Source of the DNA: Naegleria gruberi
Lineage: Eukaryota
Assembly (NCBI GenBank): GCA_000004985.1
Contig: GG738916.1
Reading direction: 5' to 3' (one strand)
Length of the DNA stretch: 64,000 nt
Shown: piece by piece, positions 6,613-55,841 of the stretch
How positions within the stretch are numbered: position 1 is the first letter of the stretch
Layout of the letters: every line of letters begins with the position of its first letter
Made by a program: the position numbers and the translations under genes
The notes under the pieces: model-generated
What the model saw: the letters and a program-made list of their open reading frames with translations, nothing else
Told to the model about the DNA's origin: nothing
Databases searched by the model: none

Positions 6613-6627
6613 TTGTACCATAAATAA

Positions 6628-31322: not shown

Positions 31323-31382
31323 ATAAATTAAATTCCTGATTGGTTGTTAATTCGTCACCAGCAAAAAAACTTTACAAAAAAA

Positions 31383-34468: not shown

Positions 34469-34734
34469 TCATTTCTAATTAATTTAATAGCTCCAACTGA
34501 ATACTAAAGCTCAAGCTTTGCGTGTTGGTTGCATTTATTTTCCATCACAATGCTGAAACAACTTACCAAATGTGACTTACAAGACATTGTAATGTTGTCT
34601 TTGAATTGTAGCTTGTAATGGAAAAATGGCGTTCAAAAAAAAAATAGCATGTTGAATAGCTTGCTGTCCATCATTCTGAGAAAATATCAATCCATCAATA
34701 ATAGCACAACTTGATAATAATTAATAGTATTAAC

Positions 34735-36459
34735 ATGATGAATTATTGTAAAATATTACAATTGAGTCAAGATATATTATGCAATGTAATTATTCCCTAC
34801 TGTAATTCACATACTTTGATTGCTTTTGCTGGGGTTTGTTCCGAGTGGAGAAGAATTGTCAAAGAAAGTGATACTAGAGGAATCAAGTGTGTAAATGTGA
34901 AGCATAAATCAGCAAGATACAGATTTGAATCATTAAATGATGAGGAGGAAATGAGTGGATTAATGAAAGGTGACCTCTTGCAAATATTCTCACAAATGGA
35001 AATAAGAACTTTTCCAGAATTTGAGGAAACTATTTTTCTTAACAGATCTTTTTTTAAAAAGTTATTCAATTCAAAAAAACTGGAATTATTGACATTACAA
35101 AATACTAATATTATTACAATTATTATTCCTGCTAAAGATATTTCACCAATTATAACTCTGAAATTAATAAGTGTTCAAATGGAAGTTGAAAATTTAAGAA
35201 CTATATGCACTAATTTACTAAATTTAACAGATCTAACATTAATTGATAATGGGCTTGATTATAAGGCAACACTTGTATTGACCAAATCAAAGTTGACTCG
35301 TCTAACACATCTTACACTTCGTAATAGAATTGGAGATGAAGGTGTTAATCAATTATTGACTCAACCAGGAAATATTAGAACTTTGAAACATATTAACTTT
35401 GTTGCAAGACCTCCAGAATCATCTCAAAAAGACAATATTTCATACATAGCACCAATTAATAGTTCAATGTTACCAAATCTTGAATCTTTTTCAATAGATT
35501 TGGAGATGTCTACAAAATCAATTATGAATGTGTTGAATAGTGGTAATTCATGGAGAGAATTGACTTTTTTTCACTCACATTTAAATAGTGAATGTATGAA
35601 ACAAATTGGAAAAATTCATACACTCCAAAAACTTTGTTTTCAATCAAAATTGGAAGTAGATTTACCTTACAGATGTTTATTACCTCTTCAAAATAATCTC
35701 ACTCATCTAGAAATTGGTCCTGTTGACAATAATACATTCTCCGAATTGAGTGAGGGTAACTTTGTTAATTTGAAATATTTATGCATTCTAAATACAAAAC
35801 AAGGAAATGAAATAGATGAATATGTAATACGAAAATTCTGTGAAAAAGTTCAAAATCTAACCTATTTAGAGTTAAGAAGAGTAGTAATGAAAAGTGGATG
35901 TATGAATCACATATCCCAACTTTCAAAAATTACTGATTTACGAATTATTCAAACACATATTGATAGTGAAGAAATGAAATATTTATCAAGAATGAGTAAC
36001 TTGACAACATTATATTTAGGAAGTGAAATTACATTTGATGGAATTTCATATTTATGCAACGGAAATTTACTAAATTTACACACTTTAAAGTTTACAAGAG
36101 TTCCTTCAGGCAAGTTCAAATATGACTCAAAGTTTACATCAAGTTTAGCTCATTCAAATTTTCCAAAATTAAGATATTTGAGTTTTTATTATGAATTTGA
36201 TATTTATGCAACTGATATGTTACATTCTGGTCCATCTCTGAAAAATTTGATACATTTAGAACTTTATTGGGTAGATTTAACAATTACACCTATTTTAGTA
36301 CCTATAGTCAATAATCTGGCGCCTAAATATCTGACTGGAATTGGAGGCTTTCCAAAGCTTAAAGCTTTCTCACCAGAAGCCATACCACAATTAAGACAAC
36401 CAACAAAAATCAACTATATGACTGGACATACCGATATACGAATTGATGAATTTATTTAA
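34735..36459 (+). CDS. F-box/LRR-repeat protein (member of the AGVCSxWRRIV subfamily), copy 1 of an inverted pair.
   Basis: True ATG at 34735 (track start 34711 is TTG). F-box LSQDILCNVIIPYCNSHTLIAFAGVCSEWRRIV, then LRRs. About 98% amino-acid identity with the product of 52527..54365 on the opposite strand. Confidence 0.75.
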   Translation: MMNYCKILQLSQDILCNVIIPYCNSHTLIAFAGVCSEWRRIVKESDTRGIKCVNVKHKSARYRFESLNDEEEMSGLMKGDLLQIFSQMEIRTFPEFEETIFLNRSFFKKLFNSKKLELLTLQNTNIITIIIPAKDISPIITLKLISVQMEVENLRTICTNLLNLTDLTLIDNGLDYKATLVLTKSKLTRLTHLTLRNRIGDEGVNQLLTQPGNIRTLKHINFVARPPESSQKDNISYIAPINSSMLPNLESFSIDLEMSTKSIMNVLNSGNSWRELTFFHSHLNSECMKQIGKIHTLQKLCFQSKLEVDLPYRCLLPLQNNLTHLEIGPVDNNTFSELSEGNFVNLKYLCILNTKQGNEIDEYVIRKFCEKVQNLTYLELRRVVMKSGCMNHISQLSKITDLRIIQTHIDSEEMKYLSRMSNLTTLYLGSEITFDGISYLCNGNLLNLHTLKFTRVPSGKFKYDSKFTSSLAHSNFPKLRYLSFYYEFDIYATDMLHSGPSLKNLIHLELYWVDLTITPILVPIVNNLAPKYLTGIGGFPKLKAFSPEAIPQLRQPTKINYMTGHTDIRIDEFI

Positions 36460-37459
36460 TTAAGCCAATTAATAATTCTTACTTCTAGCACTCCAGAGAA
36501 GATCAAACCAAGTTATCTTTGTTATTAATAATTCGACTAAATCTGAAATATTTGTTACTATAGAGCTATTTATTATAACCTGCACCAAAAAAAATGAGGT
36601 TTATAAGGCAAGCACTGGAGGTTGTAGTGCCTCAATCGGAACAAGGGACCATTTTAATGATGTTTATTGGAACGTGCTCCTTACACTGAAAAAGTTCAAA
36701 ACGGAAATATTGAATGGGTTCCTCATGATGAGTTGGAATTTACCACAAAAACTCAAACTTTATTATCACAAATGAGAGTGTTATGAATGGGTCATCAGGT
36801 GGTTGTTTACAATCTTATCAATGCCAAAAAACTCAAGTTGGTGAGTATACAATTGTTGAATTTCATGGAATTCACTTTGGAGGAGAATTTTGAAAGTGTC
36901 AACATTGCTTGAAGAATATCAAACACTTGAAAGAGAAGAATATCAGATGGTCTGATTGGAATCGATATATTAATAAGTGGGACCATTGTACCTGTAAATC
37001 ACCAACCGGTTTAGCTTACAACTACTCTGTCTCTGTTCATCATCCACTATTTAAAGATGAAAACAAAAAGCTAATTCTTGAGGATTTATTGGAGTTATTG
37101 GATGTTAATATTGAAGATGAACGGTTGGCAAGATTAAAAGAATACCTCCAATAGTAAGATCCCTGTAAGAAAACACTTTCTGTATGATAGATCCCAACTA
37201 AACATAACATTGATATTTACCCATAGAATCTTCAATATCTGATATAAGAAAGAAGGAATTGTTTATAAACATTTATTTATTGGTGGCAATACCATGTTGG
37301 AGGGACTAACTTCTATAGCTCCAGAATATTTCAAGGTAAATGCTCCACCTGAGAGAAAATACTGGTAGTTCAATGTTTGACCATCTTACCTGTTGAAAAT
37401 AGAGCGAGAAGCTTCATAATAATACAATTAGTACATAATTGGTTTATATACATGTGAAA

Positions 37460-37530
37460 TCGGGTGTGGTATAGTGGTAGCATTCCAGACTGTCACTCTG
37501 GCGACCCGGGTTCAATTCCCGGCACTCGAG
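37460..37530 (+). tRNA. tRNA-Asp (anticodon GTC).
   Basis: Cloverleaf by eye. Acceptor stem TCGGGTG/CACTCGA with one G-T pair and discriminator G. U8 present. Anticodon stem CCAGA/TCTGG with loop CTGTCAC (GTC at 37492..37494). T-arm CCGGG-TTCAATT-CCCGG. Starts with U as eukaryotic tRNA-Asp does. No intron. Confidence 0.8.
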
Positions 37531-37930
37531 ATCAATTTTTAACTTTATCTCCAATAAATGATTATTACTTTTTACATCCAGGTAGGGATGATATGTAATC
37601 TAGCTAAATATCAATTTTCAAAGTTTCATCTCTTAAAACCACCGAGAAAATAATCAAAGATTTGTCACTCTCATTTAGCTTAAAAATATTACCAAGTTGC
37701 TGCAAGTTCCAAGTTCCTTGCCTTTCAAATTATTTCCGCTTATCAATCAAACTAGAAACAATTCTATTGGTTGATACACCACCAATCTTTCAAAATTGTC
37801 TCCTTTCCACTCCCAATTTGCAACAAGTTTGAACTTTAAAATAGTTATAAATACTTTCATTGTATTCGAAACTTTAGAAAAACAACAAAACAAATATCTA
37901 AACAACTAAAACAACTCAAAACTAATCAAA

Positions 37931-38383
37931 ATGATGCTTAATTGTCAATTCAGTGATGAAATTATCAAAACCTATGAAGAAATGAGAATGGGAAAGGGTT
38001 CGAATAAGGATAACAAGTTCCTCGTATTAAAAATGCAAGAAAGTTCCATTCAAATCGATCAAGAATTGTCTCAACTCTCTTCATTGGAAGAATTGACTTC
38101 CAATCTCCCACCAAAGAATTCTCGTTTCATTTGCTATCATTTAAGTTTCGAAATGCCATCTCAAAACGAAAGTTGTCAAATCAGAGAAGGAACCAGAACC
38201 AAAATGATGTTTCTCACATGGTGTCCAAACGAAACCAATGTTAAGGAAAAGTTTCAAGTAGCTGCCACTGTCAAAACAGTTAAACAAAAATTAAATGGTT
38301 TGAGTGCAACTATTCACTGCTCAACCAAGAGTGAAATTGATGAAAAGACAATGATTGAAAATTGTTTAACTTTTATGAAATGA
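37931..38383 (+). CDS. ADF-H domain protein (cofilin/GMF/coactosin-like actin-binding protein).
   Basis: 150 aa. Layout and motifs of the ADF-H fold: RFICYHLSFE…KMMFLTWCPNETNVKEKFQVAATVKTVKQKLNGLSATIHCSTKSEIDEKTMIEN (compare cofilin [31 protein letters not shown]). Confidence 0.6.
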   Translation: MMLNCQFSDEIIKTYEEMRMGKGSNKDNKFLVLKMQESSIQIDQELSQLSSLEELTSNLPPKNSRFICYHLSFEMPSQNESCQIREGTRTKMMFLTWCPNETNVKEKFQVAATVKTVKQKLNGLSATIHCSTKSEIDEKTMIENCLTFMK

Positions 38384-38396
38384 GTTTGTTTAACAT

Positions 38397-38933
38397 TCAC
38401 AATTTGCTAGATAACCAATCTAAACCTTCGAATAAACCAGTGCCATTCATTGCGCTACATGGTTGGATGTACCAATCTTGTTTGATCGAATTTAAGCGCA
38501 ATATCTTTGAAAGATCTGTAACATTGGTGGCTCTTGGTATATCTTGCTTATTAGCCCATACTAATAACTTGGCATTTGATAGTGATGGATCTTCCATAAC
38601 TTTATGCAATGTTTCTGAAACCTCTTCAAACCTCTCTCTATCATTCGAATCGACGATGAATATGACAGCATCTGTTCCATTATAATAGTGTCTCCACAAG
38701 GTTCTAATCTTATCCTGACCACCAATATCAAAAACTCTGAATTGAACTCTCTTATATTGAATCACTTCAGCATTGAAACCAATAGTAGGAATAGTATCTA
38801 CATTCTCATCTAATTGAATCTTGTACAGAGTTGATGTTTTACCAGCTGCATCCAAACCTAAAAAGAGAATTTTGGCTTGCTTGTTTTCGAATAAGGACAA
38901 GTTCTTGATCATGTTAGAAAGCAATTGACCCAT
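38397..38933 (-). CDS. ARF-family small GTPase (ARF/ARL).
   Basis: True start MGQLLSNMI (N-myristoylation-type Gly2) at 38933..38931; the track ORF extends upstream artefactually. [41 protein letters not shown] and [16 protein letters not shown] are close to ARF1. Confidence 0.85.
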
Positions 38934-39240
38934 TGTTGCGTAATGTATTTTGTTGTAGCTTGAAGTATTGTTGCTGTTTTTTTTCAATTTGTTGTTGAGT
39001 AATTTTCATTCAAGTTCAATGCAAAGGTTGTTTTTAAAGTGAAATCCTCGCTATCATTTCGTCACCATTTTTTGTAAACTTCGTCATTAGATAAAAATAG
39101 ACTGTTTTTAAAAAGACAGCAACAATAAGAACCAATGTAGGGAGAAATATTAAAAACAATATTTATTCTCTTCTTCTAAAAGGTAAAATAAAAGCAATAG
39201 TTTTTAATGTTAAAGAATTGAGCTTAATAAAAAAGACTAC

Positions 39241-39400
39241 AGCACCACAGGTTCCCAAGTTGTCTCCAACCTCAGTACTGATGTGGCTCGACGATGCTTA
39301 ACTTCTCAAATCGGACGGGATGAGGTGCATTCATCGTGATATGGCCGTAGCCATTCCCTATGTATAAATCTTAATGTTGAATAAGAATATTACTGATTTT
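39241..39400. ncRNA. Candidate structured non-coding RNA / GC-richer island in a divergent promoter region (speculative).
   Basis: About 45% G+C in a locus that is otherwise under 25% G+C. No credible ORF. A DUSE-like TCCCAAG sits at 39258. A TATAAAT box sits at 39364. Confidence 0.2.
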
Positions 39401-39878
39401 TAAATCTAATGTTTTCGTCTATGAATTCTATCTATTCTAACAATATTCTTTTCAATTTACAATTAAGACGGGAAGCCTGCCAGGAATATGGCGACAATCC
39501 CGCTACAGTCTTTGACTGTATGAACAGTGAAGGCAACGATCTTGCGATAGTTGGTTTGTTCAATTTGGTTGAGGAAATTAAGAAGATAACTGGCCTACTA
39601 TTTATTTGTTGGCAATTAGCAAAAAGTTCTTCTTAAATTTTGGTTTGATTCTTTCCCTCAATATTTAAAGCCAAATTGAATGTTCAACCCCAAACTAAAT
39701 ACAAAAACAGTCATCAAAATGTTTTCAACATGGTTAAACAGCAACAATTTAATATACTAATTTGTTAACAAATTATTAATCACTTTGATGTTTTTGATGT
39801 TGTTGTATTCATCGGATCACCTTCATCATCAAAATAATAATAATTTATTAATAAATATTTAAAAAACAAGAAGAAAAA

Positions 39879-41741
39879 ATGAGCGGAATGCCTCAACCAC
39901 GTTCTCCATCTGCTGGTCCACCTCCACCTTCAAGCGGTAGTAGCAGACATCACCACAGCAGTAGTAGTAGAGGTTCCTCTTCTTCCTCTCATCATCGTAG
40001 TGGCGGAAGTAGTAGTGGTTCCCATCATAGATCTGGAAGCTCTAGCAGAGACTCTCATCGTGACTCTCACCGATCATCATCTTCATCAAGAAATTCTAGT
40101 AATCCATCTAGTTCTCATCCACACGATGACAAAAGAAAACGTCCATCATCCTCTAAATCATCATCATCTAAACATCGCTCTAGTGGCTCTAGTAGCAAAC
40201 ACGATAGTCGTTCACAACGTTCTAAACCATCATCCTCAAATACTGTCAAAGCTCCTCCATTGTTTAAAACTGTTGAACATCCATTGAAGGAATTGGTAAA
40301 GAGTTCATTCCTTTGTAATATGAAATTCCAAACAGGTTTACCAGAAATTTTATTGGATCCTGTTTTATTAGAATATCCAAAGGATTTTACAGAAAATTTC
40401 ATCGGATACAAAACAACAAGTTTAGAAAAGAATCACAAATTCGAATTATTGACAGAAAATAATTTAGGAATCAACATGAATCTGATTAATCCTTTTGTAT
40501 ATTATAAAGATGAATCTGCCAAACTTGATCCTGAAGATGAATTATTATTGAAACCAGTTAAATCAGCAAAGAAGGAAATTGCTCGTGAATTGGTTGAAAA
40601 CTTGTCATCAAGACCATCCTGGCTTAAAGCTCCAACTTATGTTGATATGATCAATTATAAGAAGGCTGTTAAAGGTTATGGCGAAGATTTAATTCAAGAT
40701 GTTGAAGAAGAACATGTTCAGAAAATCAAACCAAAAACAGTTCCTAGAAAAGTCGAAGAAAAGAGTAGATTTGAAAAGGCTAAACAATTAGATGCCAAAT
40801 TCCAATCAGATACCTTAACCAGAACATTACCAAATGGTCAAAAAGTTAAAGCTATTGCTTGCTATTCACTTTTACCTAATTTTGCCACAATGGGCACTAA
40901 ATTTATGGCTGCAAACTTTGGAAGTGATAATCATACATTATTAGGAAAGAGAGGACGTTTTGGTGAATTAACAGCAAAGGATGCTAGTGATTCCCTTATT
41001 CTCATTCAACCAACAGATGATATTATTTTAGCAGAAAAGGCAGCTGATGACAGAAATGTTCAAGTTGCTCAATACTATGTTCCAGTTTCTAATAATGATG
41101 AAGAGGAATTATTTAATAGTGAAAAGACTGTTGGTAATATTGTGGAATTAGTTCGTGAATATGGTGGTACAATCTATGAAAAGAATAGCTCCAATGTTCA
41201 AGTTAATAAGGAAAATGAAAAGAGATTCAAATTACCAAACCACTTAATGTCTAAAGATAAGATGACCCAAGCAGAAATTGAACCGTGTGTTGCTTTGAGA
41301 TTTGATGACAATACCAGTCAATGTGTATATTCCTACATTCAAGAAGGTGTCAACTTTAAGGTCTTACCAAAGAAGAAGAAACGTAGAGTTTTCACTAAAG
41401 TTAAATTGAATGGTAAAAATCCAGATGAAGAAGTTCAATTCGAATCTCTGACAGATATCATTGCCAGCACTGAAGAACTTGGAGCAACTAAGCAAGGACC
41501 TTCTTATGAAGATGAAGAAATGCAAGAAGAAACAACTCAACAACAATCAGAAGAAGAGGAAGAAATTATTTCACCATCCGATAGAGGATCAGCAAAGAAG
41601 AGAGCTGTTCAATCCGATGATGAAGATGAAAACATGGAAGAAAGTGCACCAAATGGTGGTGAAGAAAACATGCCATCCTCTCCGACTATTGGTGATCAAC
41701 GTGCACCTTTATCCGAAGATGAATATGATGAAGAAGAATAA
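39879..41741 (+). CDS. RNA polymerase II-associated factor 1 (Paf1) homolog with Ser/Arg/His-rich N-terminal extension and acidic C-terminus.
   Basis: 620-aa ORF. FLCNMKFQTGLPEILLDPVLLEYPKDFTENFIGYKTTSLEKNHKFELLTENNLGINMNLINPFVY aligns with the Paf1 N-terminal conserved block ([25 protein letters not shown]…[22 protein letters not shown]…LINPDTY). Confidence 0.75.
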   Translation: MSGMPQPRSPSAGPPPPSSGSSRHHHSSSSRGSSSSSHHRSGGSSSGSHHRSGSSSRDSHRDSHRSSSSSRNSSNPSSSHPHDDKRKRPSSSKSSSSKHRSSGSSSKHDSRSQRSKPSSSNTVKAPPLFKTVEHPLKELVKSSFLCNMKFQTGLPEILLDPVLLEYPKDFTENFIGYKTTSLEKNHKFELLTENNLGINMNLINPFVYYKDESAKLDPEDELLLKPVKSAKKEIARELVENLSSRPSWLKAPTYVDMINYKKAVKGYGEDLIQDVEEEHVQKIKPKTVPRKVEEKSRFEKAKQLDAKFQSDTLTRTLPNGQKVKAIACYSLLPNFATMGTKFMAANFGSDNHTLLGKRGRFGELTAKDASDSLILIQPTDDIILAEKAADDRNVQVAQYYVPVSNNDEEELFNSEKTVGNIVELVREYGGTIYEKNSSNVQVNKENEKRFKLPNHLMSKDKMTQAEIEPCVALRFDDNTSQCVYSYIQEGVNFKVLPKKKKRRVFTKVKLNGKNPDEEVQFESLTDIIASTEELGATKQGPSYEDEEMQEETTQQQSEEEEEIISPSDRGSAKKRAVQSDDEDENMEESAPNGGEENMPSSPTIGDQRAPLSEDEYDEEE

Positions 41742-41805
41742 ATTTTAATTTATATTAATATAATTACGTGATTTTTAAATATTATGTTTTAATGTATTAT
41801 CAAAT

Positions 41806-46400: not shown

Positions 46401-46531
46401 GGTTGTATCGGTATTTTTTTTAGGGTGTGAAAGTTAAGTTGACAATTATGCATAATTAAATTAATTAAATGGTTATTCGAATATTTTATTCGAAAGCTTG
46501 ATAATTATTAGCGAAGAATCATCACACAAGC

Positions 46532-47983
46532 TTATTGATTCAAAACATTTGTTCGTATTGTTCTGGGGTTTGAAGCATTTGGACGTTTTCTCACCACATT
46601 GTGCGTTTGTTGAAGGTAATATGGATCGTTTTGCAAATAAAGAGGGTTTCTATCAATTTTGTGAATTTGGTTAAACGTTCTCACAAATTCTGAAACGTTT
46701 CTATCTTTGGATTCATCCTCATCCCAAAAGACCTTGTCAATTATTGTTGAGATTGCATCACGAATGAGCTTACCATATCGTTTGTGGAACGTCATGCTAT
46801 AGTAACAAATATAAGACAATACCCAAATAAAAACCTGAGCCAACGCCAAAACAAAGACTGTTAACACAACATTAAGTTTGTCTTGTGCATTGGAGGAACA
46901 ATCAGTGTAGACTGCAATGTGCCAAGAAAATTGAATGACCACAGAAGCTACAGCAACAATACATGAAATTCCAAATGAAAGAATTAAGAGAGAGAAACTG
47001 AACATGTCCATAAAATAGTCATATGCTTGATCTCTAACTTGGGAATTAAAATCACCAAACCAAGTAATTGCAAGAGGAACAGCAATAGCAACAATATAAT
47101 TTCTAACAAATTCTGTCAAACCAACCAAAACACTGCTATTATACTGTTCAAATCTTTGGCAACTATCACTAGGAGGATTTGCAACATAGCCATTATTAAT
47201 GATCATCAAATTAGAATCAGTCAATAAACGATTCAACATGGTAAAGAAAATAGCATATGAGACACATGTTGTCATCAAAAACAGGACTGAAAAGCAGCTT
47301 ATCATACTTCTAACTGCTTCATTGGTGGTTTTTTGGTAGCTGTAGAATTCACTATCCAAAAATAAGTCTTTGAGTGATTCTAATGTTTCGTGGTCAATTT
47401 CTTTTGTATTGTTTCTACTCTTTGAAAGTTTAGAAGAACGTAGGATTTTGATTTGTTCATACGCATCTTTAAATTCTTTAGGTGGAAGAGTATCCTTTAC
47501 AAATCTATCAAACTTTTCAATAATTATTCCATAGTCATCGTGCACAATATTTTTGCGTGTCATGGTTGACATTAGTCGAGTGTAAGATATCAACTTTTGA
47601 GCAAGAGACATATTTGGACCAATGTTATTACTACCACCATGTGAAATCAAGGTATTTCCAATATTTAATGTTTGCATAGGTCCATTGGTACCAATAACTA
47701 TAGATGTAACAGGTTGACCACCTGTTGATGAACTTGGTATTACACCATCAGATAAACTATTAATTGTGGAAATTGAGTTGTTAGTTCTTGTCAATACTAT
47801 CTCATCTGTTATGGGTTCAATTTGAGTCAAGACATTTTGTGTTGCTTGCAAATGATTATTTGGTACAACAATAAGAGTTTGTGGTGGTAATGATGATGAG
47901 CGTTGTGGTACTTCCTCCTCGATAATAGTAAGCTCCTCCTCCTCCTCACTCACCAAATTGTTTCTGTTGTTGGATGCTGACAT
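46532..47983 (-). CDS. Multi-pass membrane protein with N-terminal soluble domain; paralogous family with 49702..51195 and 51362..52504.
   Basis: 483 aa. Ser/Thr-rich N-terminal region, then a TM-loop-TM-TM-TM architecture (…AIFFTMLNRLL…IVAIAVPLAITWFGDF…FSFSLLILSFGISCIVAVASVVIQF…VVLTVFVLALAQVFIWVLSYICYY). Confidence 0.55.
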   Translation of the reverse strand: MSASNNRNNLVSEEEEELTIIEEEVPQRSSSLPPQTLIVVPNNHLQATQNVLTQIEPITDEIVLTRTNNSISTINSLSDGVIPSSSTGGQPVTSIVIGTNGPMQTLNIGNTLISHGGSNNIGPNMSLAQKLISYTRLMSTMTRKNIVHDDYGIIIEKFDRFVKDTLPPKEFKDAYEQIKILRSSKLSKSRNNTKEIDHETLESLKDLFLDSEFYSYQKTTNEAVRSMISCFSVLFLMTTCVSYAIFFTMLNRLLTDSNLMIINNGYVANPPSDSCQRFEQYNSSVLVGLTEFVRNYIVAIAVPLAITWFGDFNSQVRDQAYDYFMDMFSFSLLILSFGISCIVAVASVVIQFSWHIAVYTDCSSNAQDKLNVVLTVFVLALAQVFIWVLSYICYYSMTFHKRYGKLIRDAISTIIDKVFWDEDESKDRNVSEFVRTFNQIHKIDRNPLYLQNDPYYLQQTHNVVRKRPNASNPRTIRTNVLNQ

Positions 47984-48089
47984 TATTTTTTAAAAATGTG
48001 GAAAATTTTAAAAAAACTTTTAAAAAAATCACCTTATAACCATGAATACCAAAAGTGATTTTAAATCCAAAACAGAAAAAATAGCCTAA

Positions 48090-49646
48090 ATGCGCCTGTT
48101 ACCTTTTCTAAAGTTGAATAACAAACCAAGAAGAGAATCAGCACGGCAATTATTGCTCTCTGATGATATTATTTACATTATTCTTCCATGCTTGCATCAA
48201 AATGAAATTATTAAATTTGCTGGTGTTTGTTCATCGTGGAGAAGAATTGTTATTGATGCTTCCGAAGGTAGTTTCTCTAATGTATTATATCATAGGAGTG
48301 AATTTAAGAAAATACCAATGAAAATGGAGAACAAGAGTGAAAACCAACAAGTTTTATTAATGTTTTCAAAATTTGATTTCTCTGATTGCAATTTAACTTT
48401 ATCACAATTCAAAAGAATATTCATGTCAACTAAATTGACATCATTGACACTATGCCGTACAAATATTATGATTTTCCCTTCTGAATCACTCACATTTCTA
48501 ACCATTAATCAAATTAATCTTTCTCTAAACAATATTGAACAATTAATATTTCAATTTAAAAATTTGAAAAATTTAATTTTATTACATACTAATGTTGATT
48601 GTGAGTGCATTGATCTTATTATTAATAATAATCAATTAGAGAGTCTTATTATTGAGCAGAAAATAATATCTGAGAGAGGATTCTCTGCCGTGTTCAATCC
48701 TCATTTCAATTCATCACTCAATACCCTTCATGTTAAGAGTTTGAACACAGAGGAATTTCTTAGTTTTAATATTGATACACTTAAATTTCCTCATTTGAGA
48801 ACATTGGAAATTATTGGATTATTTGATAGATTAGTGCTTGAGAAAATATTTAATTATGGTCTTGAATTAACGTATTTAGCAATATTGACAACGAGCATTA
48901 TGAGCTACGATGTTGATTTTTCATATGTACATCAAATACCCTCTCTCAAATCATTTTCCTATAATGGACCTCTTAATAATGTAGATGTTCAACAATTTCT
49001 TAATAAGGATATGGAACATATTCTGTTTTCAGATCTTGACACAGTATCATCATTGAATTTATCTAGAATACTTTGTGACAAATATACTAGTTTAATTTCA
49101 TTAGAGCTTTCAAATTGTGAATTACCTACAAATTGTGGACAATACATTTACAATTTAAAACACTTGACAAAACTAGATATGGGATATAGTAAAATACAAT
49201 CAACAATTTGTGGATATATTTTCAAGATGAAAACTCTGGTTCATCTCAATCTAAAATGTTGTAAATTAAGAGATGACGGATTGAAGTATTTAGAACATCA
49301 CAACTTGGATAATATACAGACATTAATTCTAGAAGAAAACGAATTTACATATATTGGCTTTGAATACTTAATTCGTGCCAAATTTCACCGTCCATTGAAA
49401 TATCTTTCCATTTTTGACCATATTAATAATAAGGGAACAATACATTTTGACACTGACCACACTCTTAATGTTAAAACACTCTTTATTTGTGATAGGTATA
49501 TAGATTATAGGGGAGTAATTTCTATTCTACAAAATTGTATAATAGAAGAATTAATTATCAAGAAACCACAATTACTCTATCTTGGATCACACTCCATTAA
49601 ACAACTTTCAAAGAAGAATCACGTGAAGGTAGTAATGTTTATATAA
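48090..49646 (+). CDS. F-box/LRR-like protein (AGVCSxWRRIV subfamily, divergent member).
   Basis: 518 aa. F-box-like LLSDDIIYIILPCLHQNEIIKFAGVCSSWRRIV, then LRR-like units (LKNLILLHTNVDCECIDLII…LTKLDMGYSKIQ…LVHLNLKCCKLRDDGLKYL). Confidence 0.65.
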   Translation: MRLLPFLKLNNKPRRESARQLLLSDDIIYIILPCLHQNEIIKFAGVCSSWRRIVIDASEGSFSNVLYHRSEFKKIPMKMENKSENQQVLLMFSKFDFSDCNLTLSQFKRIFMSTKLTSLTLCRTNIMIFPSESLTFLTINQINLSLNNIEQLIFQFKNLKNLILLHTNVDCECIDLIINNNQLESLIIEQKIISERGFSAVFNPHFNSSLNTLHVKSLNTEEFLSFNIDTLKFPHLRTLEIIGLFDRLVLEKIFNYGLELTYLAILTTSIMSYDVDFSYVHQIPSLKSFSYNGPLNNVDVQQFLNKDMEHILFSDLDTVSSLNLSRILCDKYTSLISLELSNCELPTNCGQYIYNLKHLTKLDMGYSKIQSTICGYIFKMKTLVHLNLKCCKLRDDGLKYLEHHNLDNIQTLILEENEFTYIGFEYLIRAKFHRPLKYLSIFDHINNKGTIHFDTDHTLNVKTLFICDRYIDYRGVISILQNCIIEELIIKKPQLLYLGSHSIKQLSKKNHVKVVMFI

Positions 49647-49701
49647 AGATTCATTTCATTCATTTATTTGATTATCCAGAGTTGTGGTTTTTATCTTGAT
49701 T

Positions 49702-51195
49702 TCAATAAGTTCTGTTTAAATCATTTTCTAGTTCCAACCAATGCCAACTTTTCCATTTCTCAATTGCTTGTTTTTGAGGTTCATTTTTAAGCTTGGTGAT
49801 GGCAACATCCAGCTCATGCTGTCTATTTCCAATTTCTCTGTGTTGAAGTTCAATTTCTTCAGTGGAGTTAGATGCTTGAATAACAGGCTCTGTAAATAAC
49901 ACACTATAGTTCACATTTTGAATGCTGTGTGTTTTGGTATTGTGATAGCTGTAGTATTTTCTTTTCTTTTGGTTTTTTGCCTTCCTAAATTGTCTATTCA
50001 TTAAAATTCTAAAACAACCGAATGCAGGTATAAACAGCATAAACAAAATACTACCAACAACTTGAGTCCAAAATGCACCAAGCATGAGCTTTAGGTATTC
50101 ATTTGGAGCTATTAAATTAATGGCTGTATTAAAACTGATACCAATGGCAATGTTTAAGATAATGGTAATAAAAGTAATGAATTTAAATGTAACCTCGAGA
50201 ACATTTGTAACGGTATCACTATTAATCAATATACTCTTATTGTTGATTGAATTTAACATGGCATCCATAATTGTCAAAAAGGCTGCATATGAACCTGTTT
50301 TGAAAAAGCTTGAATTTAAAATATCGACTATAGAAGCCAATATTTTGCTATCTCTGAAGTTTTGATTATGATCAGTATACTGAGTAGTATCATTTCTGCT
50401 GAAGTAGCTTGGATAGATACCTATAGGGCCTTGTTTGTCAATTCCTAACCCTGACAAAGTGTCGAAGGGAATGAGATCACTAAGAGTGGTCATTACAATT
50501 AACAAACTGATAGCAGCACCGAACGCAAGATTGTACCATGAAACAAGTGAGGTTTCTCTTTTTTGAACAAAGTCCTTCTTGTTTGTTTTGATATCTTTCT
50601 CAAGAGTTTCGTATTTCTTTTCAACTTCTCTTATAGCTGTAAGAAATTTTCTTTTCCCCTCCCAACCATTTTTAGCATCTTGGTTAGCAAACAGATTTAC
50701 TAAAGCTTCAACATCTTCTACCAAAACATTTCCATCAACAAGGATAACACTATTATAAATATTTTTGTAAAGGCTATTCAACTTTGTAATATCTACACCG
50801 TGCCAAAACGATGTCCAAGTAGTTGCACCATTCTCCCCAAAATAAAAATCGTAAAAAGCTATTTCAGTGTTGACTGGTGAATCTGGTATTTTGCTAATTA
50901 CACCCTTCAAACCATAGTAGCTAGTGGCAATCAACTCAATTCTCTCTCCAACATAGTCTGTAGTGTCAATTCCTTCTAAATCACCCAAAGTGTTGTACTT
51001 TCGTATTTTCTCAACATTTGCTTGTACAAAATTATGACAGTTGTGGAAGGATGTAGAGGCAAATTTGATAAGTTTTCCCACCTTTTTCCATTTTTTGTAA
51101 CGCCAAGCATAGTCGCTGGTGTCTCCTGTGCGTGCCACAATACCACAACAACCTTTGTTGGTTTTCTTGCCTTTTGCTTTGTTCTGAGATGACAT
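49702..51195 (-). CDS. Multi-pass membrane protein (same family as 51362..52504 and 46532..47983).
   Basis: 497 aa. N-terminal soluble region with IREVEKKYETLEKDIKT…KRETSLVSWYNLAFGAAISLLIV, paralleling IRALEEKYLGFKKSIKT…KPREASLIALFNISFGIWMG in the neighbouring gene. Then four TM helices and a basic tail. Confidence 0.55.
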   Translation of the reverse strand: MSSQNKAKGKKTNKGCCGIVARTGDTSDYAWRYKKWKKVGKLIKFASTSFHNCHNFVQANVEKIRKYNTLGDLEGIDTTDYVGERIELIATSYYGLKGVISKIPDSPVNTEIAFYDFYFGENGATTWTSFWHGVDITKLNSLYKNIYNSVILVDGNVLVEDVEALVNLFANQDAKNGWEGKRKFLTAIREVEKKYETLEKDIKTNKKDFVQKRETSLVSWYNLAFGAAISLLIVMTTLSDLIPFDTLSGLGIDKQGPIGIYPSYFSRNDTTQYTDHNQNFRDSKILASIVDILNSSFFKTGSYAAFLTIMDAMLNSINNKSILINSDTVTNVLEVTFKFITFITIILNIAIGISFNTAINLIAPNEYLKLMLGAFWTQVVGSILFMLFIPAFGCFRILMNRQFRKAKNQKKRKYYSYHNTKTHSIQNVNYSVLFTEPVIQASNSTEEIELQHREIGNRQHELDVAITKLKNEPQKQAIEKWKSWHWLELENDLNRTY

Positions 51196-51361
51196 TCTCA
51201 GTCCTGTAACCTTGTGTTATTTTTTCTCGGCTATTAAAAGTATATTAACTTTTAAACAGAAAATAATACGGTGCGATTGAGCTCTTGAATGGTTTTGTCT
51301 GGTTGACCGTGAAACCTAATTCAATTTTTGGATAAAAAAAATATTAAAGAGCACTTTCAGC

Positions 51362-52504
51362 ATGGTTAACATTCGTGATTTTGATAAACAGCCTGAAGCA
51401 CGAAGTAAAGCAGCACGAAATGAAGCAACCCTAAAAGAAGAAGAGGACAACACCACACTTTATCAATGGTTCCTAGATCTTGGTAGAGCAATCCAAAATG
51501 CAGGTACAGAAGATAGTCCCTTGTCTAAATTGATGTTAGTTTCCAAAGAACAATGGTTTTTGGATGCCAAAGAATTTGTTTTTAAGCCACCTAAAACACA
51601 ATACAAACATAGATATGTTCTTGTACTTATTTCCAATTTGAAGACTTTGATTGTTGGTACTGAAATTTTACTCAAGAAAAAAGACGACAATGTTGATAAA
51701 ATAGAGCAGCTAACCAGTATAAGAGCTTTGGAAGAAAAGTATTTGGGGTTTAAGAAATCGATCAAGACTCAACAAAACTCATTGCAAAAGCCAAGAGAAG
51801 CTTCATTGATAGCATTGTTCAACATATCATTTGGAATTTGGATGGGTTTGTTCCTTTTGTTGTTGTCCCTTGGTTCAAATGCTGGTTTTGCTTACAAAGT
51901 TGAGACAACTGCAAATGATTTGGCAAAAGCCATAAATTCTACATTCATATCAAAACCTATTAGCAACATGACACTTAATTCTTCAAGCAATATCACACCA
52001 AACAATATAACAAACCACAATGAAGAGATCATTGCAGACATTCGTTGGTACATGGCATCAAGAGGATTCACCAATTTATTCAGCCTTTTCAGTAGCAGTG
52101 TTGTTCGTATTACAACTTTTTCAATCCTGATTACCATTATTGACTTGCTTCTTGGACTTGAATTTAAGGATTACCTTACCTCTGCCTCCTTTAAAAAGAG
52201 AAGACAATATTTTTTCTATACTTTTTACTTTTGGATTAGTTCTGGATTTTTAGCTCACCTTTTTATTTTTGTACTCTTTGTAGCATTGTTTAATGGTGCA
52301 GTAATTGGTGATGGAACAATGTCCTTTCAAACTTTTGTGTCAGTGGTCAAGTCTGTGCAGATTGTTGGCCTAATTGGAATGTCTGTTGTATTGCTCTCTA
52401 CTGTATTCATCAAAATTTTCCTGGTTTGGCAAGTAAGGAAGAGTGAAGAAAGATTTGTTGGTTCTAAAAAATCTAAAGGTTGCTGCCGTTGCTTTTGTTG
52501 TTAA
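51362..52504 (+). CDS. Multi-pass membrane protein with Cys-rich C-terminal tail (paralog of 49702..51195, divergently transcribed).
   Basis: 380 aa. TM helices and tail SKKSKGCCRCFCC. The two ATGs (51195 minus, 51362 plus) lie 166 bp apart. Confidence 0.55.
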   Translation: MVNIRDFDKQPEARSKAARNEATLKEEEDNTTLYQWFLDLGRAIQNAGTEDSPLSKLMLVSKEQWFLDAKEFVFKPPKTQYKHRYVLVLISNLKTLIVGTEILLKKKDDNVDKIEQLTSIRALEEKYLGFKKSIKTQQNSLQKPREASLIALFNISFGIWMGLFLLLLSLGSNAGFAYKVETTANDLAKAINSTFISKPISNMTLNSSSNITPNNITNHNEEIIADIRWYMASRGFTNLFSLFSSSVVRITTFSILITIIDLLLGLEFKDYLTSASFKKRRQYFFYTFYFWISSGFLAHLFIFVLFVALFNGAVIGDGTMSFQTFVSVVKSVQIVGLIGMSVVLLSTVFIKIFLVWQVRKSEERFVGSKKSKGCCRCFCC

Positions 52505-52526
52505 TAATATAAATTAGTTTGCTTTA

Positions 52527-54365
52527 TTAAATAAATTCATCAATTCGTATATCTGTATATGCAATCAAATAGTTGATTTTTGTTGGTTGTCTTAATTGTG
52601 ATATGACTTTTGCTTTAAGGGCTGCAAAACCTCCAATTCCAGTCAGATATTTAGGTGCCAGATTATTGACTATAGGTACTAAAATAGGTGTAATTGTTAA
52701 ATCTACCCAATAAAGTTCTAAATGTATCAAATTTTTCAGAGATGGTCCAGAATGTAACATATCAGTTGCATAAATATCAAATTCATAATAAAAACTCAAG
52801 TATCTTAATTTGGGAAAATTTGAATGAGCTAAACTTGATGTAAACTTTGAGTCATATTTGAACTTGCCTGAAGGAACTCTTGTAAACTTTAAAGTTTGTA
52901 AATTTAGTAAATTTCCGTTGCATAAATATGAAATTCCATCAAATGTAATTTCACTTCCTAAATATAATGTTGTCAAGTTACTCATTCTTGATAAATATTT
53001 CATTTCTTCACTATCAATATGTGTTTGAATAATTCGTAAATCAGTAATTTTTGAAAGTTGGGATATGTGATGCATACATCCACTTTTCATTACTACTTTT
53101 CTTAACTCTAAATAGGTTAGATTTTGGACTTTTTCACAGAATTTTCGTATTACATATTCATCTATTTCAGTTCCTTGTTTTGTATTTAGAATGCATAAAT
53201 ATTTCAAATTAAGAAAGTTACCCTCACTCAATTCAGAGAATGTATTATTGTCAACAGGACCAATTTCTAGGTGAGTGAGATTATTTTGAAGAGGTAATAA
53301 ACATCTGTAAGGTAAATCTACTTCCAATTTTGATTGAAAACAAAGTTTTTGGAGTGTATGAATTTTTCCAATTTGTTTCACACATTCACTATTTAAATGT
53401 GAGTGAAGAAAAGTCAATTCTCTCCATGAATTACCACTATTCAACACATTCATAATTGATTTTGTCGACATCTCCAAATCTATTGAAAAAGATTCAAGAT
53501 TTGGTAAAATTGAACTATTAATTGGTGCTATGTATGAAATATTGTCTTTTTGAGATGATTCTGGAGGTCTTGCAACAAAGTTAATATGTTTCAAAGTTCT
53601 AATATTTCCTGGTTGAGTCAATATTTGATTAACACCTTCATCTCCAATTCGATTACGAAGTGTAAGATGTGTTAGACGAGTCAACTTTGATTTGGTCAAT
53701 ACAAGTGTTGCCTTATAATCAAGTCCATTATCAATTAATGTTAGATCTGTTAAATTTAGTAAATTAGTGCATATAGTTCTTAAATTTTCAACTTCCATTT
53801 GAACACTTATTAATTTCAGTGTTGTAATTGGTGAAATATCTTTAGCAGGAATAACAATTGTAATAATATTAGTATTTTGTAATGTCAATAATTCCAGTTT
53901 TTTTGAATTGAATAACTTTTTAAAAAAAGATCTGTTAAGAAAAATAGTTTCCTCAAATTCTGGAAAAGTTCTTATTTCCATTTGTGAGAATATTTGCAAG
54001 AGGTCACCTTTCATCAATCCACTCATTTCCTCCTCATCATTTAATGATTCAAATCTGTATCTTGCTGATTTATGCTTCACATTTACACACTTGATTTCTC
54101 TAGTATCACTTTCTTTTACAATTCTTCTCCACTCGGAACAAACTCCAGCAAAAGCAATCAAAGTATGCCAATTAAAATAGGGAATAATAACATTGCAAAA
54201 TATATCTTGACTCAATTGTAATATTTTGGAATAAATCATCATGTTAATACTATTATCTGTTGTTGTTGTGCTATTACTATCGGTTGTTGTGTTATTATTG
54301 ATGGATTGATAGTGGGTACTTTCTCTAGAAAAACAACAGAATGATGGACAACAAGTTGTCAACAT
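52527..54365 (-). CDS. F-box/LRR-repeat protein, inverted near-identical paralog of 34735..36459, with a longer N-terminal extension.
   Basis: 612-aa ORF with ATG at 54365. About 98% identical to copy 1 across the F-box and all LRRs. The N-terminal 40-aa extension (MLTTCCPSFCCFSRESTHYQSINNNTTTDSNSTTTTDNSIN) is degraded by indels in copy 1. Confidence 0.75.
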   Translation of the reverse strand: MLTTCCPSFCCFSRESTHYQSINNNTTTDSNSTTTTDNSINMMIYSKILQLSQDIFCNVIIPYFNWHTLIAFAGVCSEWRRIVKESDTREIKCVNVKHKSARYRFESLNDEEEMSGLMKGDLLQIFSQMEIRTFPEFEETIFLNRSFFKKLFNSKKLELLTLQNTNIITIVIPAKDISPITTLKLISVQMEVENLRTICTNLLNLTDLTLIDNGLDYKATLVLTKSKLTRLTHLTLRNRIGDEGVNQILTQPGNIRTLKHINFVARPPESSQKDNISYIAPINSSILPNLESFSIDLEMSTKSIMNVLNSGNSWRELTFLHSHLNSECVKQIGKIHTLQKLCFQSKLEVDLPYRCLLPLQNNLTHLEIGPVDNNTFSELSEGNFLNLKYLCILNTKQGTEIDEYVIRKFCEKVQNLTYLELRKVVMKSGCMHHISQLSKITDLRIIQTHIDSEEMKYLSRMSNLTTLYLGSEITFDGISYLCNGNLLNLQTLKFTRVPSGKFKYDSKFTSSLAHSNFPKLRYLSFYYEFDIYATDMLHSGPSLKNLIHLELYWVDLTITPILVPIVNNLAPKYLTGIGGFAALKAKVISQLRQPTKINYLIAYTDIRIDEFI

Positions 54366-54507
54366 GCTCTCTTATTTTTTTTTGAACCTTAACTCCATTT
54401 TCCCCATTTTTCTTTTGATTCGGCAAAATACACAAAAACGTACAAAAATGTAAAAAATATTACAACGATGACTTTTGAAAGAGTTTACCAAAACCGACTG
54501 TTAAAAA

Positions 54508-55790: not shown

Positions 55791-55841
55791 TNNNNNNNNN
55801 NNNNNNNNNNNNNNNNNNNNNNNNNNNNNNNNNNNNNNNNN
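55791..55841. other. Assembly gap (51 N) truncating the first NHL/EGF gene copy.
   Basis: Run of n. Confidence 1.

What the first reader, a model, noticed from the sequence alone, without database searches (positions are those of the whole stretch)
34711..54365. Near-identical inverted gene pair 18 kb apart (recent inverted duplication or gene conversion)
34735..36459 (+) and 52527..54365 (-) encode F-box/LRR proteins about 98% identical over about 580 aa. Antisense artefact ORFs 34797..35069 and 53908..54180 are also near-identical. Similarity ends within a few bp after the stop codons. The N-terminal extension present in the minus copy is broken by indels in the plus copy. Inverted repeats of this size can mediate inversion of the intervening 16 kb, which holds the calpain, tRNA-Asp, ADF-H, ARF, Paf1, SSR3 and CCT5 genes.
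Basis: seen in the sequence. Interest (0 to 1): 0.55.

Follow-up and report, generated by a model that had tools for sequence, protein, structure and literature searches.

The report
Inverted paralogue pair kept alike by conversion
Two tail-to-tail copies of a Naegleria gruberi F-box-like/leucine-rich-repeat gene, 16 kb apart, are real members of a young family of at least four copies whose middles are kept alike by gene conversion; this is an ordinary kind of eukaryotic gene-family evolution, and the proposed inversion is untested.

Summary
Arm A (34631-36473, +) and arm B (54388-52513, -) are one gene-sized inverted repeat on a gapless stretch of a Naegleria gruberi NEG-M scaffold.

- **Identity.** A 1,456-bp core is 98.4% identical. 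The 5' and 3' edges are 8-16% diverged with indels, and the flanks are unrelated. Protein identity is 95%, not 98%.
- **Which copy is ancestral.** B is: its NHL and membrane-protein neighbours match N. lovaniensis. A is a derived copy of the ORF plus about 20 bp on each side, lying between a calpain gene and tRNA-Asp. Two 19-bp deletions removed its Cys-rich N-terminal extension.
- **Not an artefact.** An independent contig from another sample spans the calpain-to-A junction.
- **Not just a pair.** The 90% protein cluster holds four NEG-M genes (three on this scaffold, one on a 9.7-kb scaffold). All four combinations of 5' and 3' end types occur.
- **Gene conversion.** Synonymous divergence is 0.04 in the core against 0.16-0.26 at the edges. 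With the mosaic variants, this points to an older duplication homogenised by interlocus gene conversion.
- **Inversion.** Flipping of the 16-kb block is possible but untested.
- **Correction.** The calpain gene lies outside the interval.

Interest is low: a new example of a known kind.

The parts
34631..36473 (+). Repeat arm A: the derived copy of the F-box-like/LRR gene, with about 104 bp of degenerated former 5' coding sequence and 14 bp after the stop codon
   Evidence: MAFFT and blastn boundaries. The calpain-to-A junction is confirmed in independent contig L007, 99.2% identical over window 31349-35258.
34735..36459 (+). ORF of copy A, 574 aa. It corresponds to GenBank EFC37617.1 / NAEGRDRAFT_74674, whose model starts one Met later.
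34649..34714 (+). Relic of the ancestral start codon in copy A. It is now a 21-codon dead-end upstream ORF, created by two 19-bp deletions relative to B.
   Evidence: The same deletions are present in L007 and L006.
34882..36337 (+). Homogenised core of arm A. It pairs with 54095-52640 in arm B: 1,456 bp, 23 mismatches, no gaps.
52513..54388 (-). Repeat arm B: the copy at the ancestral locus
   Evidence: Boundaries. The neighbours (NHL gene upstream and divergent, membrane-protein gene downstream and convergent) are the same as around the N. lovaniensis orthologue in L001.
52527..54365 (-). ORF of copy B, 612 aa, with a Cys-rich N-terminal extension (MLTTCCPSFCCF...). The GenBank model EFC37661.1 / NAEGRDRAFT_74682 starts at the internal Met (570 aa).
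36474..52512 (.). The 16-kb spacer between the arms. It holds:
- tRNA-Asp, 37460-37530 (+)
- cofilin/ADF-H, 37931-38383 (+)
- ARF, 38397-38933 (-)
- 5S rRNA, 39234-39352 (-)
- Paf1, 39879-41741 (+)
- TRAP-gamma, about 41806-42450 (-)
- CCT5, about 43430-45155 (+)
- three ORFs of unknown function: 45636-46400 (-), 46532-47983 (-), 49702-51195 (-)
- a distant paralogue, 48090-49646 (+)
- a membrane-protein ORF, 51362-52504 (+)
48090..49646 (+). Older paralogue of the same family inside the spacer: 25% identity over 512 aa, E = 2e-15, with the same FAGVCSxWRRIV motif
32738..34468 (+). Calpain-family gene, the left neighbour of copy A. It lies outside the interval.
51362..52504 (+). Membrane-protein ORF convergent with copy B, with 22 bp between the two stop codons. 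Its homologue sits in the same position in N. lovaniensis.
54508..55791 (+). NHL-repeat gene divergent from copy B. It is tandemly duplicated at 56278-57166, and a homologous segment lies upstream of the N. lovaniensis orthologue.

Best explanation
The window comes from a 245-kb scaffold of Naegleria gruberi NEG-M. It carries two paralogous, intronless copies of a gene for an F-box-like/leucine-rich-repeat protein. By inference this protein is a substrate receptor of an SCF-type ubiquitin ligase. The copies lie tail to tail, 16 kb apart.

Copy B is at the ancestral locus. Copy A arose by a DNA- or RNA-mediated copy of almost exactly the ORF (23 bp upstream, 14 bp downstream), placed between a calpain gene and tRNA-Asp. 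It later lost the Cys-rich N-terminal 41 codons through two 19-bp deletions.

The pair belongs to a young, N. gruberi-specific family of at least four copies. The duplication is older than the 98% core identity suggests. The edges give dS of about 0.16-0.26, while the 1.46-kb core (dS 0.04) has been homogenised by interlocus gene conversion among family members.

Shown: the repeat, its boundaries, its reality in a second sample, B's ancestral position, uneven divergence along the arms, and mosaic variants.
Inferred: gene conversion as the cause, the SCF role of the protein, and the potential of the arms to invert the spacer by non-allelic homologous recombination.
For: Repeat and boundaries.

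Species, family size and age:
- Best hit is an N. gruberi predicted protein. [quoted passage not shown]
- The 90% cluster holds four NEG-M genes: EFC37617.1 (A), EFC37661.1 (B), EFC37623.1 (same scaffold, but not in the window by tblastn) and EFC35768.1 (on a 9,731-bp scaffold). It also holds one Logan contig.

B is ancestral:
- tblastx shows the NHL segment and the membrane-protein gene flanking the N. lovaniensis orthologue in the same relative orientation as around B.
- A's flanks find nothing in that locus.
- B keeps an N-terminal extension, as the orthologues do.

A is real: L007, from run ERR1078381, spans the calpain-to-A junction and has both 19-bp deletions.

Conversion:
- Mismatch rate is 1.6% in the core against 8.2% (5' coding), 11.5% (3' coding) and 15.5% (former 5' coding). 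Fisher p ranges from 3e-5 to 4e-10.
- dS is 0.041 in the core against 0.26 and 0.16 at the edges, p = 3e-4.
- All four combinations of 5' type (long or deleted) and 3' type (PKLKAFSPE... or AALKA...) exist among A, B, P0013 and P0014. Among the four NEG-M copies all three possible 2:2 splits occur.
- L007 carries B-type variants interleaved with A-type ones within less than 127 bp, the k-mer size in the contig's name.

Selection: overall dN/dS is 0.32, and 0.23 in the core.

Protein:
- AlphaFold model with a confident LRR solenoid.
- Top Foldseek hits are COI1, TIR1 and FBXL2.
- The N-terminal motif matches two Pfam-passing F-boxes from the same window by hhalign, 93% probability, E = 2.8e-7.
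Against: - The edges are short (about 27 and 25 synonymous sites) and partly low-complexity, so faster local mutation, slippage or relaxed constraint could inflate their divergence.
- The mosaic evidence is partly at protein level only (P0012, P0013), where recurrent substitution cannot be excluded.
- L006 is a short-read contig confined to the repeat and may be an assembly chimera.
- The genomic place of P0013 is unknown, so it could be an allele rather than a fourth locus.
- No outgroup is close enough to polarise the DNA differences: at 26 differing residues B matches the outgroups 5 times and A once.
- The F-box is not confirmed by Pfam thresholds, and the N-terminus of the model has low confidence.
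Confidence: 0.75

Rival explanations
1. Plain recent duplication without gene conversion. The copies split about dS 0.04-0.06 ago, and the termini simply evolve faster because of relaxed constraint, low-complexity slippage and loss of the N-terminal extension in A.
For: - The 5' edge is rich in AAT/ACA low-complexity sequence and indels.
- C-terminal dN/dS is 0.85 against 0.23 in the core, as expected if the tail is less constrained.
Against: - Synonymous divergence is also 4-6 times higher at the edges, p = 3e-4.
- All four combinations of end types exist, and 2:2 splits among the NEG-M copies are incompatible with one tree.
- The copy anchored to calpain in a second sample carries B-type variants.
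Confidence: 0.15
2. The arms are recombinationally active, and the 16-kb block exists in both orientations in N. gruberi haplotypes or strains. P0013 (B-type 5', A-type 3') and P0014 (A-type 5', B-type 3') would be the reciprocal chimeric arms of the flipped arrangement.
For: - The arms are 1.84 kb and 98% identical in the core, with identical runs up to 175 bp.
- The two chimeric end combinations expected from a crossover between inverted arms both exist.
- N. gruberi is reported to be heterozygous and recombining (PMC9928731, citing Fritz-Laylin 2010).
- A 1,151-bp NEG-M scaffold carries a second partial calpain, so haplotigs or extra copies of this region exist.
Against: - Neither chimera is a clean single-crossover product; both are patchworks.
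- P0014 comes from a repeat-confined short-read contig.
- The 9.7-kb scaffold with P0013 carries no cluster-mate of calpain, ARF, Paf1 or the 497-aa gene, so no expected neighbour could be placed on it.
- Gene conversion alone explains the same chimeras.
- The reference orientation keeps NHL-B-membrane protein collinear with N. lovaniensis.
Confidence: 0.15
3. Copy A originated as a retrocopy of the B mRNA. This concerns origin only and is compatible with later gene conversion.
For: - The duplicated unit is almost exactly the ORF, from 23 bp upstream of B's ATG to 14 bp after the stop, so no promoter-sized flank came along.
- The insertion lies in an unrelated intergenic site 160 bp after the calpain stop codon.
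Against: - There is no poly(A) remnant and no target-site duplication at A's boundaries; the longest shared flank word is 6 bp.
- Both copies are intronless, so intron loss cannot be scored.
- Fourteen bp of 3' trailer is short for a complete 3' UTR.
Confidence: 0.2
4. Assembly artefact: one locus, or two haplotypes of one locus, placed twice in the scaffold.
For: - The scaffold has N gaps nearby: 29827-29876 and 55792-55841.
- NEG-M has small extra scaffolds with near-identical genes.
Against: - Both arms and the spacer lie in one gapless stretch, 29877-55791.
- The arms have different unique flanks and different indel-bearing edges.
- The calpain-to-A junction is reproduced in an independent assembly of another sample.
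- B's flanks are syntenic with N. lovaniensis.
Confidence: 0.02

Closest known systems
F-box/LRR substrate receptors of SCF ubiquitin ligases (FBXL type: Skp2, FBXL2; plant TIR1, COI1, MAX2/D3)
   Same: - An N-terminal F-box-like motif of about 40 residues followed by a long solenoid of alternating strand-helix leucine-rich repeats.
- The top Foldseek hits are COI1, TIR1 and FBXL2, solved in complex with ASK1/SKP1.
- The motif profile matches bona fide F-boxes.
   Different: - Sequence similarity is marginal: Pfam F-box is below threshold, LRR_14 scores 33 bits against a cut-off of 40, and TM-scores are only 0.4-0.5.
- Copy B and the orthologues carry a Cys-rich N-terminal extension.
- Binding to Skp1 is untested.
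Lineage-specific expansion of F-box gene families by local duplication, as in plants and nematodes (from general knowledge)
   Same: - Several F-box genes cluster in this window: A, B, the distant paralogue at 48090-49646, a separate F-box/LRR pair at 21938-23320 and 27373-29145, and an F-box/Roc gene at 31344-32138.
- The young copies are species-specific.
   Different: - The organism is a heterolobosean amoeba.
- The copies are dispersed and inverted rather than a simple tandem array.
- The duplicated unit is ORF-sized.
Arm-to-arm gene conversion in inverted repeats and palindromes, such as the human Y-chromosome palindromes, and concerted evolution of young paralogues (from general knowledge)
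   Same: - Inverted arms with high identity in the interior and a sharp drop at the boundaries.
- Mosaic sharing of variants between copies.
   Different: - The arms are only 1.8 kb, with a 16-kb spacer full of housekeeping genes.
- At least four partners take part rather than two.
- The evidence is indirect.
Inversions mediated by inverted low-copy repeats through non-allelic homologous recombination, such as the human Xq28 FLNA-EMD and F8 int22h inversions (from general knowledge)
   Same: The geometry is right: two inverted, highly similar arms flank a unique segment.
   Different: - No inverted arrangement was observed here.
- The arms are much shorter, and their longest perfectly identical run is 175 bp.

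Membership tests
F-box protein (SCF substrate receptor) | An F-box motif of about 40-50 residues recognisable by sequence | tested here: inconclusive
   - Pfam F-box and F-box-like give no hit in copy B. They score 19.4 and 19.0 bits in the N. lovaniensis orthologue, against cut-offs of 20.5 and 24.3.
- hhalign of the family motif against two Pfam-passing F-boxes from this window gives 93% probability, E = 2.8e-7 over 31 columns.
- The AlphaFold model has three short helices at residues 53-85, but with pLDDT below 50.
F-box protein (SCF substrate receptor) | A C-terminal protein-interaction domain, here leucine-rich repeats | tested here: met
   - The AlphaFold model shows a regular strand-helix solenoid from about residue 150 to 600, with pLDDT mostly 83-96 between residues 180 and 470.
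- Foldseek E-values reach 1e-9 to COI1 and TIR1, and also match ribonuclease inhibitor and NLR proteins.
- Pfam LRR_14 scores 33 bits, below its cut-off of 40.
F-box protein (SCF substrate receptor) | Binds Skp1 and recruits substrates to a cullin ligase | not testable with these tools
   This needs pull-down or two-hybrid assays with N. gruberi Skp1.
Inverted segmental duplication (substrate for non-allelic recombination) | Two arms in opposite orientation with high identity and unrelated flanks | tested here: met
   The arms are 1.84 kb, 96.3% identical overall and 98.4% in the core. The flanks are 58-67% mismatched.
Inverted segmental duplication (substrate for non-allelic recombination) | Both orientations of the spacer are observed | not testable with these tools
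   - The N. gruberi genome is not in the contig collections: look-ups of A, B and P0013 found nothing.
- Only chimeric end combinations were seen, and gene conversion explains them equally well.
Interlocus gene conversion (concerted evolution of paralogues) | Divergence is uneven along the repeat, including at synonymous sites | tested here: met
   Core 1.6% against edges 8-16%, p between 3e-5 and 4e-10. dS 0.041 against 0.26 and 0.16, p = 3e-4.
Interlocus gene conversion (concerted evolution of paralogues) | Variants shared among copies in patterns that no single tree explains | tested here: met
   - All four 5'/3' end combinations occur.
- Among the NEG-M copies the splits are AD|BC (many sites), AC|BD (residues 171 and 490) and AB|CD (residue 483).
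- The A-locus contig L007 carries B-type bases.
- Caveat: part of this evidence is protein-level or comes from short-read contigs.
Processed retrocopy | A poly(A) tail remnant and a target-site duplication | tested here: not met
   There is no A-run after the 3' boundary, and the longest word shared by the two flanks is 6 bp.
Processed retrocopy | Loss of introns relative to the parent gene | tested here: inconclusive
   The parent copy B and both orthologues are single uninterrupted ORFs, so there are no introns to lose.

The most novel reading that the evidence does not exclude
The two arms act as a recombination switch. Crossing-over between A and B flips the 16-kb block of housekeeping genes (tRNA-Asp, cofilin, ARF, 5S rRNA, Paf1, TRAP-gamma, CCT5), and both orientations segregate in N. 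gruberi. The B5'/A3' gene on the 9.7-kb NEG-M scaffold and the A5'/B3' contig from ERR1078381 would be the reciprocal recombinant arms. Each flip would also swap the Cys-rich N-terminal extension between two different C-terminal tails of the F-box-like protein.
Probability: 0.15. Interest if true: 0.4.

Novelty: new member of a known kind. Interest (0 to 1): 0.2.

Why it matters
This is a clean, well-bounded example of young paralogues in a heterolobosean amoeba, a group with little work on genome dynamics. It has an identifiable ancestral copy, a derived 5'-truncated copy, and signs of ongoing sequence exchange.

Practical points for N. gruberi NEG-M:
- Copy B is probably annotated too short. 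The 612-aa ORF with the N-terminal extension seen in the orthologues fits better than the 570-aa model.
- Copies of this family cannot be told apart by short reads across about 1.5 kb.
- Identity in the core underestimates the age of the duplication.

If the inversion were shown, it would be a compact model for repeat-mediated structural polymorphism in a putatively sexual protist. No new principle is involved.

Tried and rejected
**Look-ups that failed**
- Exact-protein look-ups of A, B and P0013 found no record, because the N. gruberi assembly is not in the contig collection. The third copy (NAEGRDRAFT_74692) was not looked up and does not lie in the window. Neither the 9.7-kb scaffold nor that copy could be read.
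- I tried to place P0013's scaffold through the 90% clusters of neighbouring genes. No cluster-mate on a 9,731-bp scaffold was found for calpain, ARF, Paf1, or the 254-, 483- and 497-aa genes.
- The ADF-H, 518-aa and membrane-protein ORFs are not in the protein collection, in full or from internal Met starts.
- A scan of metagenome contigs for relatives of B found none.
- A calpain search to find an 'empty site' in relatives found no N. lovaniensis or N. fowleri orthologue.
- The Paf1 loci of both relatives show that only Paf1-TRAP-gamma-CCT5 is syntenic. The site of A therefore has no direct counterpart.
- The Cell 2010 genome paper and the 2011 review are not held.

**An error of my own, corrected**
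I first read tblastx hits at 5844-7493 as a second paralogue in N. lovaniensis. They belonged to the N. fowleri locus L002, stored in the same file.

**Ideas rejected**
- Chance: ruled out by 1.8 kb at 96% identity.
- Assembly artefact: see the rival explanations.
- Transposable element: no terminal repeats, no target-site duplication, and no transposase or reverse transcriptase in or beside the arms.

Full report
Yes. The repeat finder reports a single inverted pair in the whole 64-kb window: 34722-36365 against 52612-54255, 1644 nt, 98% complementary, 16,246 nt apart. blastn and a MAFFT alignment with flanks extend the homology to A = 34631-36473 (+) and B = 54388-52513 (-). That is 96.3% identity over 1775 columns with four gaps. 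Outside these limits the two sequences are 58-67% mismatched, which is random for 32% G+C DNA.

The ORFs are as stated: 34735-36459 (574 aa from the first ATG) and 52527-54365 (612 aa). The two 90-aa antisense ORFs also exist, and their similarity follows simply from lying inside the repeat. There is no N run between 29877 and 55791, so both arms and the spacer are one contiguous piece of sequence.

Two details needed correcting. Protein identity is 95.4% over 571 residues, not 98%. The calpain gene (32738-34468) lies to the left of copy A, not in the interval.
- tRNA-Asp
- cofilin/ADF-H, ARF, Paf1 and TRAP-gamma
- CCT5, whose best matches are all CCT epsilon subunits, E = 4e-207

A 5S rRNA gene is also there, at 39234-39352.

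**2. Whose genome, and how many copies?**
The best database hit is a predicted protein of Naegleria gruberi on a 245,038-bp scaffold. The only other homologues found are one protein each in N. lovaniensis (43%) and N. fowleri (41%). The duplication is therefore specific to the N. gruberi lineage.

The 90%-identity cluster shows that this is not just a pair. It holds four NEG-M genes and one short-read contig:

| Member | Accession / gene | Where |
|---|---|---|
| A | EFC37617.1 / NAEGRDRAFT_74674 | this window |
| B | EFC37661.1 / NAEGRDRAFT_74682 (model starts at an internal Met) | this window |
| third copy (P0012) | EFC37623.1 / NAEGRDRAFT_74692, 499 aa | same scaffold, outside the window (tblastn finds only A and B) |
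| fourth copy (P0013) | EFC35768.1 / NAEGRDRAFT_76573, 615 aa | a 9,731-bp scaffold |
| P0014 | 571-aa product of a Logan contig | run ERR1078381 |

A much older paralogue lies inside the spacer at 48090-49646. It is 25% identical over 512 aa (E = 2e-15) and has the same FAGVCSxWRRIV motif. The window also holds a second, unrelated F-box/LRR pair in a 5.8-kb direct duplication, and an F-box/Roc gene. The neighbourhood is a cluster of duplicating F-box-type genes.

**3. Which copy is ancestral?**
In N. lovaniensis (locus L001) the orthologue has an NHL-repeat segment upstream on the opposite strand. Downstream it has a convergent membrane-protein gene. This is exactly the arrangement NHL (54508...) / B / membrane-protein ORF (51362-52504) around copy B. 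Nothing around copy A matches that locus.

Both orthologues have an N-terminal extension of about 40 residues ahead of the conserved motif, containing a Cys-Phe pair. B keeps such an extension (MLTTCCPSFCCF...). In A the ancestral ATG survives at 34649, but two 19-bp deletions shift the frame. What remains is a 21-codon dead-end ORF, and translation must start at 34735.

At the 26 residues where A and B differ, B matches an outgroup five times and A once. The direction fits B being ancestral, but the difference is not significant.

The Paf1-TRAP-gamma-CCT5 block of the spacer is syntenic in N. lovaniensis and N. fowleri, but everything upstream of Paf1 differs. The site of A therefore has no direct 'empty' counterpart.

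**4. Is copy A an assembly artefact?**
No. Contig L007 is a MEGAHIT contig from ENA assembly ERZ929261 of run ERR1078381. It is 99.2% identical to window 31349-35258 and runs from calpain across the junction 620 bp into the repeat. It carries both 19-bp deletions. A second contig from that sample is 99.5% identical to the Paf1 region. That sample therefore holds a closely related N. gruberi genome with the same arrangement at this junction.

**5. The duplicated unit**
Homology starts 23 bp upstream of B's ATG and ends 14 bp after the stop. B's stop is only 22 bp from the stop of the convergent membrane-protein gene. The unit is thus almost exactly the ORF, without a promoter-sized flank.

That would suit a retrocopy. 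However, there is no poly(A) remnant and no target-site duplication; the longest word shared by the two flanks is 6 bp. The parent gene has no introns to lose. The mode of origin stays open.

**6. Recent duplication or gene conversion?**
Divergence is very uneven along the arms:

| Segment | Mismatch | dS |
|---|---|---|
| Former 5' coding region | 15.5%, plus 43 gap columns | not scored |
| First 147 coding bp | 8.2% | 0.26 |
| 1,456-bp core (34882-36337) | 1.6%, no gaps | 0.041 |
| Last 122 coding bp | 11.5%, plus a 9-bp indel | 0.16 |

- Fisher p for core against the edges ranges from 3e-5 to 4e-10.
- The same pattern holds for synonymous sites alone (edges against core, p = 3e-4), which argues against relaxed constraint as the sole cause.
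- dN/dS is 0.32 overall and 0.23 in the core, so the copies look constrained. Conversion from a functional partner could have the same effect.

The family is reticulate. All four combinations of 5' type (long or deleted) and 3' type (...GGFPKLKAFSPEAIP... or ...GGFAALKAKVIS...) occur among A, B, P0013 and P0014. Among the four NEG-M copies all three possible 2:2 splits are seen.

In the second sample, the copy anchored to calpain interleaves A-type and B-type bases within distances shorter than 127 bp, the k-mer size in the contig's name.

Taken together, the best reading is an older duplication (dS about 0.16-0.26) whose middle is kept alike by interlocus gene conversion.

Caveats:
- The edges are short and partly low-complexity.
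- Some of the evidence is at protein level only.
- L006 is confined to the repeat and may be a chimeric contig.

**7. What the gene encodes**
- Pfam gives only a sub-threshold LRR_14 match for A and B (33 bits against 40) and no F-box. The orthologues score 19.4 bits against the F-box cut-off of 20.5.
- An AlphaFold model of B (mean pLDDT 69.9) has a confident strand-helix solenoid over roughly residues 150-600 and a poorly defined N-terminus.
- Its best Foldseek matches in the PDB are COI1, TIR1 and FBXL2 in complex with ASK1/SKP1. Ribonuclease inhibitor and NLR proteins follow, and TM-scores are only 0.4-0.5.
- A profile of the family's N-terminal motif matches two Pfam-passing F-boxes from the same window with 93% probability, E = 2.8e-7.

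'F-box-like/LRR protein, probably an SCF substrate receptor' is a fair label. Membership is not proven.

**8. Inversion**
The geometry allows it: two inverted arms of 1.84 kb, with identical runs up to 175 bp. The two chimeric end combinations are what a crossover between the arms would produce.

Both chimeras are patchworks rather than single-crossover products, however. One comes from a repeat-confined short-read contig. No expected neighbour could be placed on P0013's scaffold. Gene conversion explains the chimeras without any inversion.

The reference orientation keeps NHL-B-membrane protein collinear with N. lovaniensis. I put the probability of a segregating inversion at about 0.15.

**9. 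Verdict**
It is an ordinary phenomenon: a young, locally expanding F-box-type gene family with concerted evolution, here in a heterolobosean amoeba. Both genes are already in GenBank as 'predicted proteins'. Their inverted arrangement, B's ancestral status, the truncation of A and the conversion signal were not mentioned in the papers I was able to read.

Novelty: a new member of a known kind. Interest: 0.2.

Noticed in passing
window 39234-39352 (-); L004 18452-18602: A 5S rRNA gene (Rfam 105 bits) lies inside the spacer, 500 bp upstream of Paf1. A segment about 93% identical exists in N. fowleri, but on the other side of the Paf1-TRAP-gamma-CCT5 block. The 5S gene has therefore moved relative to a conserved gene block.
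   Followed up: partly
window 21601-23363 and 27412-29188: A 5.8-kb direct duplication (93-97% identical) lies in an AT-rich stretch (21-27% G+C) next to N gaps. It carries a second, unrelated F-box/LRR gene pair: 27373-29145 passes the Pfam F-box threshold, and its twin is at 21938-23320. An RCC1/BTB gene sits between them.
   Followed up: partly
window 54603-55491 and 56278-57166; 58382-59530: The NHL-repeat gene next to copy B is tandemly duplicated (97-100% identical, spacing 1675 bp) and bordered by N gaps. A 117-bp tandem repeat array follows. The right side of B is thus also a duplication-prone or poorly assembled area.
   Followed up: no
window 48090-49646 (+): A distant paralogue of A and B (25% identity, E = 2e-15) lies inside the spacer. 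Its exact sequence, like those of the cofilin ORF (37931-38383) and the membrane-protein ORF (51362-52504), is not in the protein collection. These genes may be missing from the NEG-M annotation or modelled differently.
   Followed up: partly
window 14050-18787 versus L003 2816-6208 and L004 2512-6094: The UQ_con gene and the 808-aa gene lie next to the Paf1 block in N. lovaniensis and N. fowleri, with only a PCMT-domain gene between. In N. gruberi they are separated from Paf1 by about 21 kb. That stretch holds F-box genes, RCC1/BTB, phospholipase B, calpain, copy A, tRNA-Asp, cofilin, ARF and 5S rRNA.
   Followed up: partly
L005, L006, L007 (run ERR1078381, project PRJEB11402, labelled metagenome): A public 'metagenome' run contains DNA 99.2-99.5% identical to this N. 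gruberi window. It holds two different sequences with the A-type deleted 5' edge (L006 and L007). These may be two alleles or copies in that strain, or a chimeric contig.
   Followed up: partly
window 13376-13543 (-): A U1 spliceosomal RNA gene, just above the Rfam gathering score (70.4 against 69.5 bits).
   Followed up: no
window 52527-54365 (-) N-terminus; 51362-52504 (+) C-terminus: Copy B starts with a Cys-rich stretch (MLTTCCPSFCCF), and the convergent neighbour ends with one (GCCRCFCC). Both look like possible palmitoylation sites. Copy A has lost its stretch. This is speculative and was not tested.
   Followed up: no
P0025 (EFC35232.1), a 1,151-bp NEG-M scaffold: A partial calpain (216 aa), at least 90% identical to the calpain next to copy A, sits on a tiny separate NEG-M scaffold. 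This suggests a haplotig or an extra copy of the left flank.
   Followed up: no
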